The notes: generated from the sequence alone by a model not told the origin. Shown: positions 52,903 to 62,273, counted from the stretch's first letter. The stretch: 64,000 nucleotides of DNA from Gammaproteobacteria bacterium (GCA_965243115.1 CBDEUD010000003.1:3328689-3392688); one strand, 5' to 3'. Translations and numbers: made by a program.

Positions 52903-52976
52903 GCCCTGATAGCTCAGACGGATAGAGCGTCCGCCTCCTAAGCGGAAGGCCAGAGGTTCGAATCCTCTTCAGGGCG
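52903..52976 (+). tRNA. tRNA-Arg (anticodon CCT)
   Basis: GCCCTGATAGCTCAGACGGATAGAGCGTCCGCCTCCTAAGCGGAAGGCCAGAGGTTCGAATCCTCTTCAGGGCG folds by hand into a cloverleaf with anticodon loop CTCCTAA. CCA is not encoded. Confidence 0.85.
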
Positions 52977-53005
52977 CATTTTTTTACTTCTGAATTCTGC
53001 ATATC

Positions 53006-53047
53006 TTGTAAACCACCATTTATTCTGGTATGATGACATGTCATCAT
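53006..53047 (+). promoter_or_regulatory. Sigma70-like promoter plus an 18-bp perfect palindrome (operator) for cassette A
   Basis: TTGTAA (53006-53011), a 17-nt spacer, then TATGAT (53029-53034). The palindrome ATGATGACATGTCATCAT (53030-53047) overlaps the -10 and the ATG at 53046. Confidence 0.55.
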
Positions 53048-53477
53048 GAAAGCACGGAAAAAACTGAAACCGGAACAAGGGATGGCAGGGGATATTGATC
53101 CTGTCGTCATTCGTCGCAGACAGCTGCGCCTGGCAAAACGACGCCAGCGTGAACGGGAGAAACAGCGTGACCTTGTACTCTATCAACTGCGGCTGCCGCG
53201 CAGGCTTGCGGAAAAGCTGAAGGCAGGCCTCAAACAAGCCGGTTTCGTGTCTGATTTCCGGGCATTCATTGACTATCGGGTCATATGCATCGACGATTTC
53301 GAGAATCTGCGATTACTAGCGTGGAATCGCACCAGCCGTTTCGTGACCCGCACTGAGGCTTTTCAACTCTACGAACGCAACTGGCGTCACGTCGATTTGA
53401 ATGGGATGTGCGCCGAGGAGCTTGAATTGATTAGACGACTGAAACAGGAATATGGCAATGGCGTCATCAATGCCTGA
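53046..53477 (+). CDS. Small basic protein, presumed antitoxin/regulator partner of the AbiEii-type protein; family not recognised
   Basis: 143 aa with a Lys/Arg-rich N-terminus (RRRQLRLAKRRQREREKQR). Overlaps the downstream NTase gene. Confidence 0.5.
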   Translation: MKARKKLKPEQGMAGDIDPVVIRRRQLRLAKRRQREREKQRDLVLYQLRLPRRLAEKLKAGLKQAGFVSDFRAFIDYRVICIDDFENLRLLAWNRTSRFVTRTEAFQLYERNWRHVDLNGMCAEELELIRRLKQEYGNGVINA

Positions 53478-54165
53478 GTTCAAACGCCCGAGACATCTAC
53501 GGGTATGGAGGGCACTGAAATCTTTCGATGCCGGGTTTCTCACCGATACCTGCTGTTACTTCGGCGGCGGTACGAGAATAGTTCTTGGATTAGGCGAATA
53601 CAGAGAGTCTGCCGATGTTGATTTTCTTTGCGCTGACGGTCCCGGCTACAGGACGCTACGCAATGCCATTTCCCAAAATTCTCTCGGCGATATCCTCAGG
53701 GAACCGATTGCCCTGTCGCGAGAGGTGCGCGCCGATCGCTATGGAATCCGGACATTCCTGGACCTTGACGGTGAGCCCGTCAAGTTTGAAATTATTACTG
53801 AAGGGAGAATCCGGCTTGACGCTGATCCAACCGCGGAATTGCCGGTTCCCGCGCTTGATGCGGCCTCATGTTTTGCTGAAAAATTTCTTGCCAACGCAGA
53901 CCGCTGGGCAGATCGATCCGTGCTCAGTCGTGATGTTATCGACCTGGCCTTCATGATTAAAGGCTGGGGGGATGTGGCGGCGATTGCCGGCCTGGAAAGG
54001 GCGACTGGTGCTTATGGTGATGTGGTAGCAGATTCTCTGGCAAAGTCCGCCAGGAAACTCAAAGACGACTCCGGGTATTTCCGCCACTGCTTGCGCGAAC
54101 TGGCTGTTTCCGACAGCAGGGAGTTACATAGCGGATTACGCACATTAATACAGGTAATCGGGTAG
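53470..54165 (+). CDS. AbiEii/AbiGii-type nucleotidyltransferase (DUF1814) toxin family protein
   Basis: YFGGGTRIVLGLGEYRESADVDFLCA matches the hGG-x(n)-S-x-D-hDh NTase motif of type IV TA toxins. The start could also be 53452. Confidence 0.65.
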   Translation: MPEFKRPRHLRVWRALKSFDAGFLTDTCCYFGGGTRIVLGLGEYRESADVDFLCADGPGYRTLRNAISQNSLGDILREPIALSREVRADRYGIRTFLDLDGEPVKFEIITEGRIRLDADPTAELPVPALDAASCFAEKFLANADRWADRSVLSRDVIDLAFMIKGWGDVAAIAGLERATGAYGDVVADSLAKSARKLKDDSGYFRHCLRELAVSDSRELHSGLRTLIQVIG

Positions 54166-54269
54166 AACGGGTGCGATATTCCCTAAAACCTCGAGCCAAA
54201 TAAGCCGGGAGGTGTAACACCTCAACCCCAGACAAAATCGACTTCTGCAAAACCTCAAATCCAAGCCGA

Positions 54270-54371
54270 AAAAAATGTTGGGACGATTGTTGGGAGACAG
54301 AAAATCCGTTATTTAAATAGTCCATATAATCAACTACTTACATAACGAATTCTACGCCTCTTCAGGGCGCC
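54270..54371 (+). repeat. Cassette-boundary repeat R1 (arm plus tRNA-3'-end core)
   Basis: AAAAATGTTGGGACGATTGTTGGGAG...AATTCTACGCCTCTTCAGGGCGCC. Confidence 0.85.
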
Positions 54372-54383
54372 AGTTTGCTTGAG

Positions 54384-60663: not shown

Positions 60664-60764
60664 GAAAATGTGTCGGGACGATTGTTGGGATGCTATAAAT
60701 CCCGAAGAATAATATTCAGTATAAAAAAACAGTTACATAGAAGGTTCTACACCTCTTCAGGGCG
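60664..60764 (+). repeat. Cassette-boundary repeat R3
   Basis: GAAAATGTGTCGGGACGATTGTTGGGATGCTATAAATCCCGAAGAATAATATTCAGTATAAAAAAACAGTTACATAGAAGGTTCTACACCTCTTCAGGGCG. Confidence 0.9.
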
Positions 60765-60786
60765 AATTATTTGCCGTATCCGCAGG

Positions 60787-61194
60787 TTATTGAGCCAGGA
60801 TTTGAACGCCTTCCTTTGCGGCTGCCCGCAGCAGCGCGCCGTCAAAGCTTGCCAGCGCCGCGTCCCGGCGCTTTGCCAACTCCAGGTAGACTGCGTCATA
60901 GATGGACAGCTTGTGCAATCGGGCAAGGGAGGTAACCATCTCGAGAACAGCCTCCGAATCGGTTTGAATGGGGAGCCATTTCAGCGCTTCCAGGCATTCG
61001 TCCATACGGGTTGCGGACAGGCGTGCGCGCCGTTCGGCGATGATCAGGCCATTGCGGACCTCCAGGTGCCACAGCTGGGGCACGAACGCACTGTCGCGGA
61101 CCAGGCGGCTGCGCACGATGTCGGCCTGCGGCGCCTGTTCATCATCGAGGAACCACGCCAGGGCGACCGATGCATCAAGAACGAAGTCGTTCAA
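60787..61194 (-). CDS. vapC: PIN-domain ribonuclease toxin VapC
   Basis: FVLDASVALAW, LWHLEVRN and IYDAVYLELA carry the PIN acidic residues. 4-nt overlap with the antitoxin gene. Confidence 0.85.
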   Translation of the reverse strand: MNDFVLDASVALAWFLDDEQAPQADIVRSRLVRDSAFVPQLWHLEVRNGLIIAERRARLSATRMDECLEALKWLPIQTDSEAVLEMVTSLARLHKLSIYDAVYLELAKRRDAALASFDGALLRAAAKEGVQILAQ

Positions 61195-61442
61195 TAGCGA
61201 TGGCCTTCATGGCGTGCGGCGAGGATCTCTTCCAGAGACATATCGATTCCCTTCCATCCGGCGCGCCAGGACTCAAAGCGCTCGACCGCTGCCCTGCGGC
61301 CCGCGCGCGCCTGGGCTTCCGCAGGCACAAGGTGAGCTATCGGCTTGCCATGACGGGTGATTGCTATGGTTTCTCCGTGCTCAACTTCGCTGAGTAGCCG
61401 GGCGAGGTGAGCTTTTGCTTCGGTTGCCTGGACTTCGCGCAT
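61191..61442 (-). CDS. vapB: Phd/YefM-type antitoxin (VapB partner)
   Basis: VQATEAKAHLARLLSEVEHGETIAITRHGKPIAHLVP. Confidence 0.8.
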   Translation of the reverse strand: MREVQATEAKAHLARLLSEVEHGETIAITRHGKPIAHLVPAEAQARAGRRAAVERFESWRAGWKGIDMSLEEILAARHEGHRY

Positions 61443-61476
61443 GACTTTATTTGTACCGGTTAAAATAACTGGTTAA

Positions 61477-62220
61477 ATAATACTACAAACCTTCCTTCAG
61501 GTCAACCACGCTGTCAGGCCTGCGCTGGCCAACATCTCCGAGGTACTGCACACCGGCGCCCTGGCCTCCGGCCCCCAGATCGACAACACCTATGGCGGAG
61601 CAGTCGTATCCGGTGGTCCCGGCGTCAACACCTTCGGCCTGCGCAGTCTCGATCCGGGCCGCACCCTGATCCTGGTGAACGGCCGGCGCTTTACGCCGGC
61701 AGGCGCCCGCGGCCAGGTCAACAGCGTCGACCTGAACTCGATTCCGGATATCGCCATAGACCGTATCGAGATACTGAAGGACGGCGCCTCTTCCATCTAC
61801 GGCGCAGACGCCGTCACCGGGGTGGTAAACATCATCACCAGGAAGGGGTTTGACGGTTTCAGCGTGAAAGGCTACTACCAGGATGAACTCGACCTCGGCT
61901 CCGCGAGCGGCCTGTACGGCAAGACCTGGGACCGCGGCCACATCGACGTCGGGATCGAGGTTTCAAAATTCGGGCCGGTGGGCCGGGACCAACAGGACTG
62001 GAGCTTGTGCGATGAGCGCCCGTTGACGAACGGCGGGGTACACCCGTCCTATTACGGCCCGACCCGGGACGGCCGTTGTTTCGGCACGGTGAACGGTTAC
62101 GTGGACGTGTATGGGCGCGGCGCGCCGTTCACCCTGGTGCCTGAACCCGGCGCCGGGTACGATCTCTATGGGCGCCGGGTTTTTGCCACGTTCAACTATA
62201 ATTTTTCGTCGCCCTTCTGA
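61477..62220 (+). pseudogene. TonB-dependent receptor remnant (plug fragment fused to the last barrel strand)
   Basis: GLRSLDPGRTLILVNGRR...DLNSIPDIAIDRIEILKDGASSIYGADAVTGVVNIITRKG is the plug. There is no signal peptide or TonB box. It ends RRVFATFNYNFSSPF after only about 245 aa. Confidence 0.7.
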
Positions 62221-62224
62221 CTCA

Positions 62225-62273
62225 GGAATAAACAACCACTTACGTATAGAGTTCTACACCTCTTCAGGGCGCC
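62225..62273 (+). repeat. Cassette-boundary repeat R4 (short arm plus core); right end of the array
   Basis: ...AACAACCACTTACGTATAGAGTTCTACACCTCTTCAGGGCGCC. Confidence 0.8.

What the first reader, a model, noticed from the sequence alone, without database searches (positions are those of the whole stretch)
52903..62273. tRNA-Arg(CCT) followed by four integrase-less cassettes, each closed by a repeat that ends in a copy of the tRNA 3' end
Seen directly: the tRNA 3' end GGTTCGAATCCTCTTCAGGGCG (52955-52976) recurs in the same orientation as (A/G)(A/G)TTCTAC(A/G)CCTCTTCAGGGCG at 54348-54371, 59386-59409, 60743-60764 and 62250-62273. In R1-R3 the preceding roughly 80 bp are also conserved. They include a tandem ATTGTTGGGA(T/C)G motif, which looks like recombinase arm-type sites, and then CTATAAATCC...CAGTTACAT. 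R2 and R3 are near-identical over about 100 bp. The four intervals hold: (A) a small basic protein plus an AbiEii-type NTase with its own promoter and operator; (B) a 4.8-kb RTX/FG-GAP metalloprotease gene; (C) a wHTH-MNT plus HEPN pair; (D) VapBC plus a TonB-receptor remnant. I see no integrase, excisionase or transposase anywhere in the 9.3 kb. Inference: these are serial site-specific insertions into the same tRNA attB by elements that share one att arm and rely on a recombinase supplied in trans. That would make this an integron-like or CIME-like cassette array enriched in TA/defence cargo. A tRNA-anchored array of roughly 1.4-5 kb single-function cassettes without a resident integrase is not a standard described island architecture.
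Basis: partly seen in the sequence, partly recalled or inferred. Interest (0 to 1): 0.85.

Follow-up and report, generated by a model that had tools for sequence, protein, structure and literature searches.

The report
Integrase-less cassette array at tRNA-Arg
Downstream of a tRNA-Arg gene lies a real, strain-variable stack of small defence, toxin-antitoxin and secreted-protease gene cassettes. Each ends in the right-hand attachment site of a conjugative island whose integrase sits at the same tRNA in sister genomes, so this is a clear multi-unit case of the known "cis-mobilizable element" (CIME) accretion, not a new kind of system.

Summary
tRNA-Arg(CCT) lies at 52903-52977, and its 13-nt 3' core CCTCTTCAGGGCG recurs exactly four times downstream. 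Three copies are preceded by a conserved ~110-nt arm carrying tandem TGTTGGGAYG sites. The fourth arm is a deletion remnant.

Sister genomes carry a putative ICE at the same tRNA, with a P4/CP4-type integrase, an AlpA-like gene, a T4SS coupling protein and VirB11. The same tandem TGTTGGG motif, at the same 12-nt period, sits just upstream of that integrase gene. In one complete chromosome the inserted DNA starts with this integrase and ends in an arm+core abutting VapBC, which directly abuts the tRNA in five other contigs. The repeats are therefore attR-type sites (P arm plus core) of that element family.

The cassettes are AbiEi/AbiEii, an RTX metalloprotease, PDC-M05, VapBC and a TonB-receptor remnant. 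They occur in different orders and subsets in relatives, with junctions always at the core. They are 92-99.8% identical where the left flanks are 72-86% identical. The window encodes no integrase.

Best reading: a CIME-like accretion array moved by the ICE integrase, in cis or in trans. It is not an integron. Interest is moderate.

The parts
52903..52977 (+). tRNA-Arg(CCT). Its 3' 13 nt (52964-52976) are the core of the attL-type site. It is followed by CAT..., not the CCA seen at unoccupied sites.
   Evidence: ARAGORN; Rfam 71 bits. Unoccupied sites in L013, L015 and L019-22 read GGGCGCCA.
52977..54250 (+). Cassette A body: AbiEi-like (53046-53477) and AbiEii (53452-54165). The left end, CATTTTTTTACTTCTGA, resembles the first ~17 nt of the ICE P' side.
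   Evidence: Pfam AbiEii 1.1e-21. PADLOC AbiEi 2.4e-23 and AbiEii 1.7e-74. Junction table.
54251..54369 (+). R1: attR-type site, made of the P arm (tandem TGTTGGGACGATTGTTGGGA at 54276-54295) and the core (54357-54369).
54370..59287 (-). Cassette B body: a 1596-aa secreted-type RTX / FG-GAP / M10 metalloprotease gene (54384-59174).
   Evidence: Pfam. The same cassette is 92.5-92.7% identical in L012, L026 and L028, and 99.76% identical between L012 and L028.
59288..59407 (+). R2: attR-type site (arm-type repeats at 59314-59333; core at 59395-59407). Its core-proximal half differs from the B arm in L012, L026 and L028 and resembles R3, which suggests gene conversion.
59408..60644 (+). Cassette C body: a wHTH-nucleotidyltransferase (ORF 59483-60178) plus a 138-aa partner (60168-60584). 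Together they match the PADLOC candidate defence pair PDC-M05A/B.
   Evidence: Pfam Polbeta/MarR_2. PADLOC 2.7e-76 and 1.4e-61. 98% identical in L027 and 92% in L026 and L028.
60645..60764 (+). R3: attR-type site (arm-type repeats at 60671-60690; core at 60752-60764). It corresponds to the site that closes the ~140-kb integrase-led insertion in OZ242265.1 (L003).
   Evidence: L003 positions 3498-4370 match window 61514-60644 at 86%. Record coordinates.
60765..61514 (-). Unit D: VapC/PIN (60787-61194) and a Phd/YefM antitoxin (61191-61442). It has no arm of its own. CCTTCCTTCAGGTCA at 61490-61504 may be a decayed core (my reading; weak). This is the oldest unit and the one most widely shared.
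   Evidence: Pfam. The same unit abuts the tRNA directly in L006, L007, L009, L010 and L011, and homology ends at the same nucleotide (61512-61514) in three different contexts.
61515..62271 (+). Unit E: a decayed TonB-dependent receptor gene (Plug fragment; ORF 61675-62220) plus R4, which is a truncated arm (62227-62258) and an intact core (62259-62271).
   Evidence: Pfam Plug 4.6e-07. L027 has the longer version with an 82-aa ORF and a full arm.
62272..64000 (-). Outer-membrane beta-barrel protein gene (62292-63131) and the start of a LuxR/MalT-type regulator gene (63275 to beyond 64000). This block is still part of the variable region. The conserved far flank (PGI) lies beyond the window.
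   Evidence: 97% identical to L027, where the left flank is only 73-84% identical, and there it continues through MalT and a histidine kinase to PGI. The OMP block is inverted in OZ242265.1.

Best explanation
The repeats are attR-type attachment sites: a ~110-nt P arm with two arm-type integrase-binding repeats, followed by the 13-bp core shared with the tRNA. They belong to a family of putative integrative conjugative elements that target the 3' end of tRNA-Arg(CCT) in this clade of uncultivated Gammaproteobacteria.

The units between the repeats are integrase-less, CIME-like cassettes. Each has cargo, a full P arm and a core at its tRNA-distal end. At its tRNA-proximal end there are at most ~25 nt of P' sequence.

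The array grows and is reshuffled by site-specific recombination at the core, catalysed by the ICE's P4/CP4-type integrase, probably with its AlpA-like partner.

The route I consider most likely is accretion with cis-mobilization:
1. An ICE integrates at the tRNA in front of resident cassettes.
2. Recombination between the ICE's attL and a more distal attR excises the ICE together with one or more cassettes as one circle.
3. The composite transfers and integrates at the tRNA of a new host.
4. The ICE later leaves alone through its own attR, and the cassettes stay behind.

Excision and reintegration of single cassettes by integrase supplied in trans is the other possible route.

Newcomers land next to the tRNA, so VapBC, which is always tRNA-distal to cassettes A, B and C, is the oldest unit.

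Shown here:
- the sites themselves;
- their identity with the boundary of the integrase-led insertion;
- the shared arm motif;
- the polymorphism, with junctions exactly at the core;
- the higher identity of the cassettes than of the left flank.

Inferred:
- that this integrase binds the TGTTGGG repeats and catalyses the exchanges;
- cis versus trans;
- whether the elements are active in the source genome.
For: 1. The same attB is used by an integrase-bearing element. In L023 and L024 (flanking glycosyltransferase 87% identical to the window's in L023; the L024 flank DNA is ~85% identical), the tRNA is followed by these genes:
- a 394-aa integrase (Arm-DNA-bind_3 + Phage_int_M + Phage_integrase);
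- a 251-aa protein;
- an AlpA/HTH_17 gene (L024);
- a TraG/VirD4-type coupling protein;
- a VirB11-type ATPase.
The integrase N-terminus matches CP4-like integrase domains in the PDB.

2. The arm motif is shared. TGTTGGGTAAAATGTTGGGTA lies between the tRNA and the integrase start. TGTTGGGAYGATTGTTGGGA lies in every P arm. Both have a 12-nt period and the same orientation. In the 425 kb of sequence held at that point, the tandem motif occurs only at these sites, apart from one locus that had been fetched by searching for that very pattern.

3. The boundary is proven in one chromosome. In OZ242265.1 the tRNA (~4,200,542-616, minus strand) is followed by the integrase. About 140 kb further on, in the same orientation, an arm+core (4,060,248) abuts VapBC with the junction CATTTTTTGCTTCATTGAGG. 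That junction is identical to the tRNA|VapBC junction in L006, L007, L009, L010 and L011.

4. Unoccupied attB sites (tRNA directly followed by PGI) exist in L013, L015 and L019-22.

5. The arrays differ between genomes:
- window: tRNA|A|B|C|D|E;
- L012: tRNA|B|A;
- L026: tRNA|B|C, A (truncated), D (truncated);
- L027: tRNA|C|D|E;
- L028: ...RHS cassette|B|C, D....
Wherever an att site survives, homology breaks at the 13-mer.

6. The cassettes are more alike than the flanks. C+D are 98.2% identical to L027, where the flank is 73-84% identical. B+C are 92.7% identical to L026, where the flank is 72-81% identical. B is 99.76% identical between L012 and L028, which carry it in different contexts.

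7. To the left of the core, every tRNA copy keeps GAAT and every arm keeps TACA/TACG (one copy reads CACA). The strand exchange therefore lies inside or to the right of the 13-mer.
Against: - No integrase, excisionase or conjugation gene lies in the 64-kb window, so activity in this genome is unproven.
- The cassettes lack the P' arm-type sites. Lambda-type systems usually need these, so independent excision or integration of single cassettes may not work. This is why I favour the cis route.
- Some junctions have lost the arm and core (C to A in L026, C to D in L028, D to E everywhere), and R4 is truncated. Part of the array is therefore already fossil.
- Arm mosaicism shows that homologous recombination also acts here. 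Examples are the converted half of R2 and an AbiEii fragment fused to an arm in L028.
- The contrast between flank and cassette identity rests on the left flank only. That flank is a polysaccharide-synthesis cluster and may itself be hypervariable.
- The ~140 kb in OZ242265.1 may be a composite of several elements. I saw only its first ~11 kb and its last ~4 kb.
Confidence: 0.78

Rival explanations
1. Fossil-only model. Each cassette is what was left in place after a complete ICE or IME integrated at the tRNA and then lost nearly everything by deletion. The array is a graveyard with no mobility of the cassettes as units.
For: The cassette left ends keep only ~15-28 nt of P'-like sequence. R4 and several junctions in relatives are visibly decayed. 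The window has no integrase.
Against: The same cassettes, with the same core-exact ends, occur in different orders and subsets: A before B, after B or after C, and C directly at the tRNA in L027. They are 92-99.8% identical in genomes whose left flank is 72-86% identical. Independent identical deletions are implausible. A single decay event followed by movement of the product is exactly the CIME model.
Confidence: 0.1
2. RecA-dependent homologous recombination between the ~110-nt arms, rather than an integrase, deletes, duplicates and reorders the cassettes.
For: R2 and R3 are 90% identical. The core-proximal half of R2 differs from the arm that travels with B in three other genomes, which looks like gene conversion. 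L028 has an AbiEii fragment fused to an arm.
Against: The tRNA shares only the 13-nt core (about 23 nt with mismatches) with the arms. Even so, A, B, C, D and the ICE are each found joined to the tRNA exactly at that core. Thirteen nucleotides is far too short for RecA. Homologous recombination between direct repeats can delete cassettes but cannot insert them into a new genome.
Confidence: 0.07
3. A true integron-like platform: single-stranded, folded attC-type sites are recombined by a dedicated IntI-like enzyme at a fixed attI.
For: The unit has the formal shape of an integron cassette (cargo plus one recombination site at its distal end), and the units are stacked at one entry point.
Against: The arms show no above-background fold on either strand as ssDNA (z-scores from -1.1 to +0.3). 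There is no IntI, attI or Pc. Cassettes B and D face the opposite way and carry their own regulatory regions. The associated recombinase is a P4/CP4-type integrase with an arm-binding domain.
Confidence: 0.02
4. A generic dispersed repeat (REP or MITE) that happens to resemble a tRNA end.
For: None beyond the repetition itself. One extra copy in OZ242265.1 (L001) lies 1.7 Mb from the array.
Against: The repeat occurs only at the tRNA-Arg locus in the window. Each of two complete chromosomes has two exact copies. All copies at the array have the tRNA's orientation. Searches of phage, plasmid, IMG/VR and JGI metagenome collections gave no true hit.
Confidence: 0.01

Closest known systems
CIMEs (cis-mobilizable elements) and site-specific accretion with ICEs. 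Examples are ICESt1/ICESt3-related CIMEs of Streptococcus thermophilus and the Streptomyces toxicogenic regions. Reviewed in PMC5704250; definition also in PMC10201445.
   Same: The elements are att-flanked and have no integration or conjugation genes. They sit in tandem at the target site of a related ICE. The predicted movement is recombination between the ICE's attL and a distal attR.
   Different: Here at least five very small units (0.75-5 kb) are stacked. None keeps recognisable ICE backbone genes. Only the P arm is conserved. The cargo is one defence, toxin-antitoxin or secreted-protein module per unit. The host is an uncultivated gammaproteobacterium and the ICE family is undescribed. 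Mobilization has not been shown experimentally.
Tycheposon-shaped genomic islands of Prochlorococcus (bioRxiv 10.1101/2020.12.28.424599).
   Same: These are tRNA-anchored islands in which successive integrations push older elements outward. Units are separated by partial tRNA copies, and degenerate remnants lack recombinases.
   Different: The recombinase families and hosts differ. Tycheposons usually carry their own tyrosine recombinase. Here the helper is a conjugative-type element, and the separators carry a long conserved arm in addition to the partial tRNA.
Integron gene-cassette arrays.
   Same: The unit is cargo plus one recombination site at its distal end. Units stack serially at one entry point. 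The recombinase is encoded outside the cassettes. Arrays differ between strains.
   Different: There are no IntI, attI or Pc, and no folded attC. Cassettes face both ways and have their own promoters. The sites are double-stranded lambda-type sites with arm-type repeats, and the entry point is a tRNA gene.
P4/CP4-57-type integrase islands at tRNA genes.
   Same: The helper integrase has the Arm-DNA-bind_3 (DUF4102) + Phage_int_M + Phage_integrase architecture. It lies directly next to the tRNA and has an AlpA-family gene nearby.
   Different: The window holds only the att-bearing passengers and not the integrase module.

Membership tests
CIME (cis-mobilizable element) | Flanked by att sites related to the attL and attR of an ICE or IME. 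| tested here: met
   The core is identical to the tRNA attB core. The P arm carries the same tandem TGTTGGG motif found in the P' region next to the ICE integrase gene. An arm+core closes the integrase-led insertion in OZ242265.1.
CIME (cis-mobilizable element) | Lacks its own recombination and conjugation genes. | tested here: met
   Pfam and PADLOC on all cassette ORFs. tblastn with the integrase found no hit in the window.
CIME (cis-mobilizable element) | Derived from an ICE or IME by deletion. | tested here: inconclusive
   Only 15-28 nt of P'-like sequence survive at the left ends. No ICE backbone gene remnant is present in the cassettes, and there is no homology to the ICE segments available.
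CIME (cis-mobilizable element) | Excised and transferred together with a helper ICE. | not testable with these tools
   The only evidence is comparative: different orders, core-exact junctions, and cassette identity above flank identity.
Integron | An IntI-type integrase next to attI and a Pc promoter. | tested here: not met
   The window has no integrase. The associated integrase in relatives is P4/CP4-type with an arm-binding domain.
Integron | attC sites that fold as imperfect hairpins in single-stranded DNA. | tested here: not met
   R1-R3 were folded as ssDNA on both strands. The z-scores ran from -1.12 to +0.33.
Integron | Co-oriented, mostly promoterless cassettes. | tested here: not met
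   B and D are on the minus strand and A and C on the plus strand.
tRNA-targeting lambda/P4-type integrative element att site | A core identical to the 3' end of the tRNA gene, with the tRNA gene kept intact. | tested here: met
   The 13-nt core is exact in all copies. An intact tRNA is called in every configuration.
tRNA-targeting lambda/P4-type integrative element att site | Arm-type repeats, distant from the core, bound by the integrase N-terminal domain. | tested here: inconclusive
   Conserved tandem repeats are present in P (about -95 to -72 from the core) and in P'. Binding has not been tested.
Tycheposon | A tycheposon-family tyrosine recombinase with a replication module on the element. 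| not tested
   The cassettes have no recombinase. The helper has conjugation-type genes (T4CP, VirB11), so the resemblance is in architecture only.
REP/MITE dispersed repeat | Many copies scattered through the genome, independent of any att site. | tested here: not met

The most novel reading that the evidence does not exclude
The cassettes are a distinct class of minimal, one-armed mobile units: cargo plus P arm plus core, with no P' arm and no gene of their own. The ICE integrase excises and inserts them individually as circles. On this reading the tRNA-Arg site is an integron-like gene-capture platform for defence and toxin modules, running on a lambda/P4-type recombinase. That would be a general route by which 'mobility-gene-free' defence islets move between genomes.
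Probability: 0.2. Interest if true: 0.75.

Novelty: new variant of a known kind. Interest (0 to 1): 0.55.

Why it matters
Many defence islands sit at integration hotspots without any mobility gene, and how they move is poorly understood. This locus gives a concrete, testable answer for one lineage. Small defence, toxin-antitoxin and secreted-protease modules each carry the right-hand attachment arm of a conjugative island. They appear to be passed around among co-occurring, divergent genomes by that island's integrase.

Documented CIMEs are few. ICEberg lists 31, and a survey of 23,213 chromosomes detected none (PMC10201445). A five-unit array with eight comparative states, an unoccupied site and an identified helper is therefore a good model for accretion and cis-mobilization. 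It also offers a search pattern (P arm plus partial tRNA) for finding such passengers elsewhere.

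Tried and rejected
- IMG/VR scans with the core variant and with the arm motif gave 0 hits and 1 hit. The single hit is a chance match in a giant-virus contig with no core downstream.
- BLAST of the arm against the phage and plasmid collections found nothing.
- The JGI metagenome scan with the core variant found nothing. The scan with the arm motif returned 39 loci, none of which has the arm context or a core. They are coding repeats or iteron-like arrays.
- An exact-protein look-up of the window's own glycosyltransferase was not on record, so the source contig could not be extended.
- Rfam with permissive thresholds over 52.5-64 kb found only the tRNA.
- Folding the arms as ssDNA to test for attC-like structure gave no signal.
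- A search for internal att copies in the first 11 kb of the OZ242265.1 element found none.
- The paralogous integrase P0157 (76% identical) in OZ242265.1 was considered as a helper and rejected. It sits at tRNA-Phe(GAA) and has different flanking repeats.
- The AbiEii pair inside the OZ242265.1 element is not detectably homologous to cassette A.
- The weak ArdC-N hit upstream of the L003 arm (E = 4e-4, below the Pfam cutoff) was not used as evidence.
- BLAST of the integrase gene against E. coli genomes found no match.
- GC content does not cleanly separate cassettes from flanks. The arms are 44-47% GC, the cassettes 51-68% and the flanks 55-66%.

Full report
**1. What is in the sequence**

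tRNA-Arg(CCT) lies at 52903-52977 on the + strand. Its last 13 nt, CCTCTTCAGGGCG, recur exactly at 54357, 59395, 60752 and 62259 in the same orientation. Shuffles predict 0.12 matches. Each downstream copy reads TTCTAC(A/G) where the tRNA T loop reads TTCGAAT. These are therefore hybrid sites with non-tRNA DNA to the left of the core.

R1-R3 share about 100 nt upstream of the core. Alignment with copies from other genomes extends the conserved arm to about 110-120 nt. The consensus blocks are ..CCGCT..T.A.GGC..AAAAA.TGTTGGGA.GATTGTTGGGATGC..AATCC..AATAATA..ATAA.CAA..A.TTACATAG...GTTCTACA followed by the core. The tandem 12-nt-period motif occurs nowhere else in the window.

R4 keeps only the last ~45 nt of the arm.

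- A: AbiEi/AbiEii.
- B: a 1596-aa RTX / FG-GAP / M10 protein.
- C: an HTH-nucleotidyltransferase pair that matches PADLOC PDC-M05A/B.
- D: a PIN toxin with a Phd/YefM antitoxin.
- E: a TonB-receptor remnant.

The window has no integrase. Pfam on the array ORFs and on 20 other mid-size ORFs found none, and tblastn with the integrase found later gave no hit.

**2. The repeat elsewhere**

An exact scan of GTDB representative genomes found the variant core in only two Gammaproteobacteria MAG chromosomes, with two copies each and the same arm.

In OZ242169.1 the two copies lie 4.2 kb apart and enclose an AAA/STAND-type NTPase pair. The distal copy is followed by ArsR, AHSA1, a hydrolase and then PGI.

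Phage, plasmid, IMG/VR and JGI collections gave no true match.

**3. The locus in relatives**

I used homologues of the glycosyltransferase that flanks the tRNA, and later homologues of the integrase and of a cassette-C protein, to fetch the same locus from 20 contigs. The states are listed below. A bar marks a junction exactly at the core. A comma marks a junction where the arm and core are missing.

| Source | Arrangement after the tRNA |
|---|---|
| L013, L015, L019-22 | tRNA\|PGI (unoccupied; the tRNA encodes CCA) |
| L006, L007, L009, L010, L011 | tRNA\|VapBC, then Metallophos, GT4, PGI |
| L008 | GDPD, amidohydrolase (no arms) |
| L017, L018 | Fic-type pair (no arms) |
| L023 | tRNA\|integrase, 251-aa protein, ..., T4CP, VirB11 (contig ends) |
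| OZ242265.1 (L024 + L003) | tRNA\|integrase, 251-aa protein, AlpA, ..., T4CP, VirB11, ... ~140 kb ... arm-core\|VapBC |
| window | tRNA\|A\|B\|C\|D, E\|OMP, LuxR |
| L012 | tRNA\|B\|A... |
| L026 | tRNA\|B\|C, A (truncated)\|D (truncated), LysR |
| L027 | tRNA\|C\|D, E\|OMP, MalT, HK, PGI |
| L028 | ...RHS/Tc cassette\|B\|C, D, RTX-like, PemK TA, ..., MalT, ..., PGI |

Each cassette keeps the same first nucleotides after the core whether it follows the tRNA or follows another cassette's arm:
- B: CCAGTTTGCTTGAG.
- C: CCAGATTTCTTCC.
- A: (C/A)ATTTTTTTACTTCTGA.
- D: CATTTTTTGCTTCATTGAGG.

**4. Link to a recombinase**

The integrase in L023 and L024 is 394 aa with the domains Arm-DNA-bind_3, Phage_int_M and Phage_integrase. 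The L024 copy is full length and 97% identical to the L023 copy. Its N-terminus matches CP4-like integrase domains in the PDB.

About 130-150 nt after the core, and just before the integrase start, lies TGTTGGGTAAAATGTTGGGTA. This is the same heptamer, period and orientation as in the P arms. In the 425 kb held at that point, the tandem motif is confined to these sites.

In OZ242265.1 the inserted DNA is bounded on the left by the tRNA core, P' and integrase. On the right it is bounded by an arm+core, followed by exactly the VapBC junction that abuts the tRNA in five contigs without the insertion.

This identifies the window's R sites as P-O-type (attR-like) sites of that element family, and the tRNA end as the B-O-P'-type site.

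A paralogous integrase in the same chromosome sits at tRNA-Phe and is not the partner.

**5. Evidence for movement**

- Cassette A sits before B (window), after B (L012) or after C (L026).
- B travels with its own arm. The arm sequence is identical in L012, L026 and L028.
- The B|R2|C block is contiguous in the window, L026 and L028.
- C+D are 98.2% identical, and the OMP-LuxR block 97.0% identical, between the window and L027. The DNA to the left of the tRNA in L027 is only 73-84% identical.
- B is 99.76% identical between L012 and L028. These two contigs come from the same sample but have different neighbours on both sides of B.
- Homology begins within ~20 nt of the core in each case.
- RecA cannot use a 13-nt match, so the tRNA-side junctions require site-specific recombination.
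- Homologous recombination clearly also acts on the arms. The core-proximal half of R2 looks converted towards R3, and L028 has an AbiEii fragment fused to an arm.

**6. Mechanism**

The cassettes keep a full P arm but at most ~25 nt of P'. That fits cis-mobilization. An ICE that integrates at the tRNA supplies attL with its P' sites and the integrase. Recombination with any distal attR then excises the ICE together with the intervening cassettes. After transfer, the ICE can leave through its own attR and the cassettes stay behind. This is the CIME accretion model (PMC5704250). It explains several observations:
- the stacking, with the oldest unit (VapBC) tRNA-distal to the other cassettes;
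- block transfer of B and C together;
- different orders of arrival in different genomes;
- the absence of any mobility gene in the cassettes.

Individual excision and integration by integrase supplied in trans remains possible, but it would have to work without P' arm sites.

Part of the array is already inert. R4 lacks the arm-type sites, D has no arm, and relatives show deleted junctions.

**7. Comparison and novelty**

The locus passes the two structural tests for a CIME (related att sites; no recombination or conjugation genes). It fails all three integron tests:
- there is no IntI or attI;
- the arms show no attC-like fold (z-scores from -1.1 to +0.3);
- the cassettes have mixed orientation.

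It resembles tycheposon-shaped islands in architecture only (bioRxiv 10.1101/2020.12.28.424599).

What is unusual is the degree: at least five minimal units, one-sided arm conservation, one module per unit, and clear exchange among co-occurring divergent genomes. Curated CIMEs are also few (31 in ICEberg; none detected in 23,213 chromosomes, PMC10201445). I rate it a new variant of a known kind, of moderate interest.

**8. Limits**

- The window ends at 64000, inside the variable region. In L027 and L028 the conserved flank (PGI) lies several kb further on.
- The source genome could not be extended.
- Integrase binding, catalysis and transfer are inferred and not shown.
- The comparison of flank identity with cassette identity uses only the left flank, which is a polysaccharide-synthesis cluster.
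- The interior of the 140-kb insertion was not seen.

Noticed in passing
window 37715-37890: A 176-bp MITE-like element with perfect 24-nt terminal inverted repeats (GGGTGGGATGGTATTTTAAGGACC). Copies or fragments lie in different intergenic positions in relatives (L006 13733-13908, L007 9450-9625, L012 15563-15703, L017/L018). L007 also has 72-nt tandem units at 13325-13541.
   Followed up: partly
window 22698-24833: A second RTX-type ORF (711 aa). It shares patches of 72-81% nucleotide identity with the copies of the cassette-B RTX gene in L012, L026 and L028. It also contains the only near-match to the core (23735, one mismatch), which is a coincidence inside coding repeats.
   Followed up: partly
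L001 (OZ242265.1 2,360,001-2,368,000), site at 456-475 (+): A further full arm+core copy lies 1.7 Mb from the tRNA-Arg island, in the opposite orientation. It is followed by housekeeping genes (PhoD, PNP oxidase, DAHP synthase, PhoX). It could be a secondary attachment site or the product of an inversion between att copies. Unexplained.
   Followed up: partly
L003 2221-3154 versus window 62288-63221: The outer-membrane-protein block next to the array is inverted relative to VapBC in OZ242265.1. In the window, R4 lies 17 nt from the point where this homology starts.
   Followed up: no
L025 (OZ242265.1 2,603,908-2,625,107): A paralogous integrase (76% identical) is integrated at tRNA-Phe(GAA). 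It is followed by NikA/MobC-like relaxosome genes and an N6_N4 methyltransferase with a SmaI-like restriction pair. This is a separate mobilizable island in the same chromosome.
   Followed up: partly
L024 12446-13519: A second integrase gene (53% identical to the first) lies 1.4 kb downstream of the first, after the AlpA-like gene, with no att copy between them. The element at tRNA-Arg in OZ242265.1 may be a composite.
   Followed up: no
L033, L048, L049, L053 (activated-sludge metagenome contigs): Long tandem arrays of GATTGTTGGGAC are followed by inverted arrays of GTCCCCAACG. They look like iterons. They were retrieved only because they contain the arm-type 12-mer, and they have no tRNA-like core.
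   Followed up: no
L004 4232-8000 and L028 1-4626: Other cassettes at the same kind of array carry an ADP-ribosylglycohydrolase with unknown partners, an AAA + AAA_16/TPR STAND-like pair, and a large RHS/Tc-toxin module. The cargo pool is therefore broader than the window shows.
   Followed up: partly
window 52977-52984: The tRNA gene here is followed by CATTTTTTT instead of the genomically encoded CCA seen at unoccupied sites. The mature 3' end must therefore depend on CCA addition, as a consequence of the last integration.
   Followed up: no
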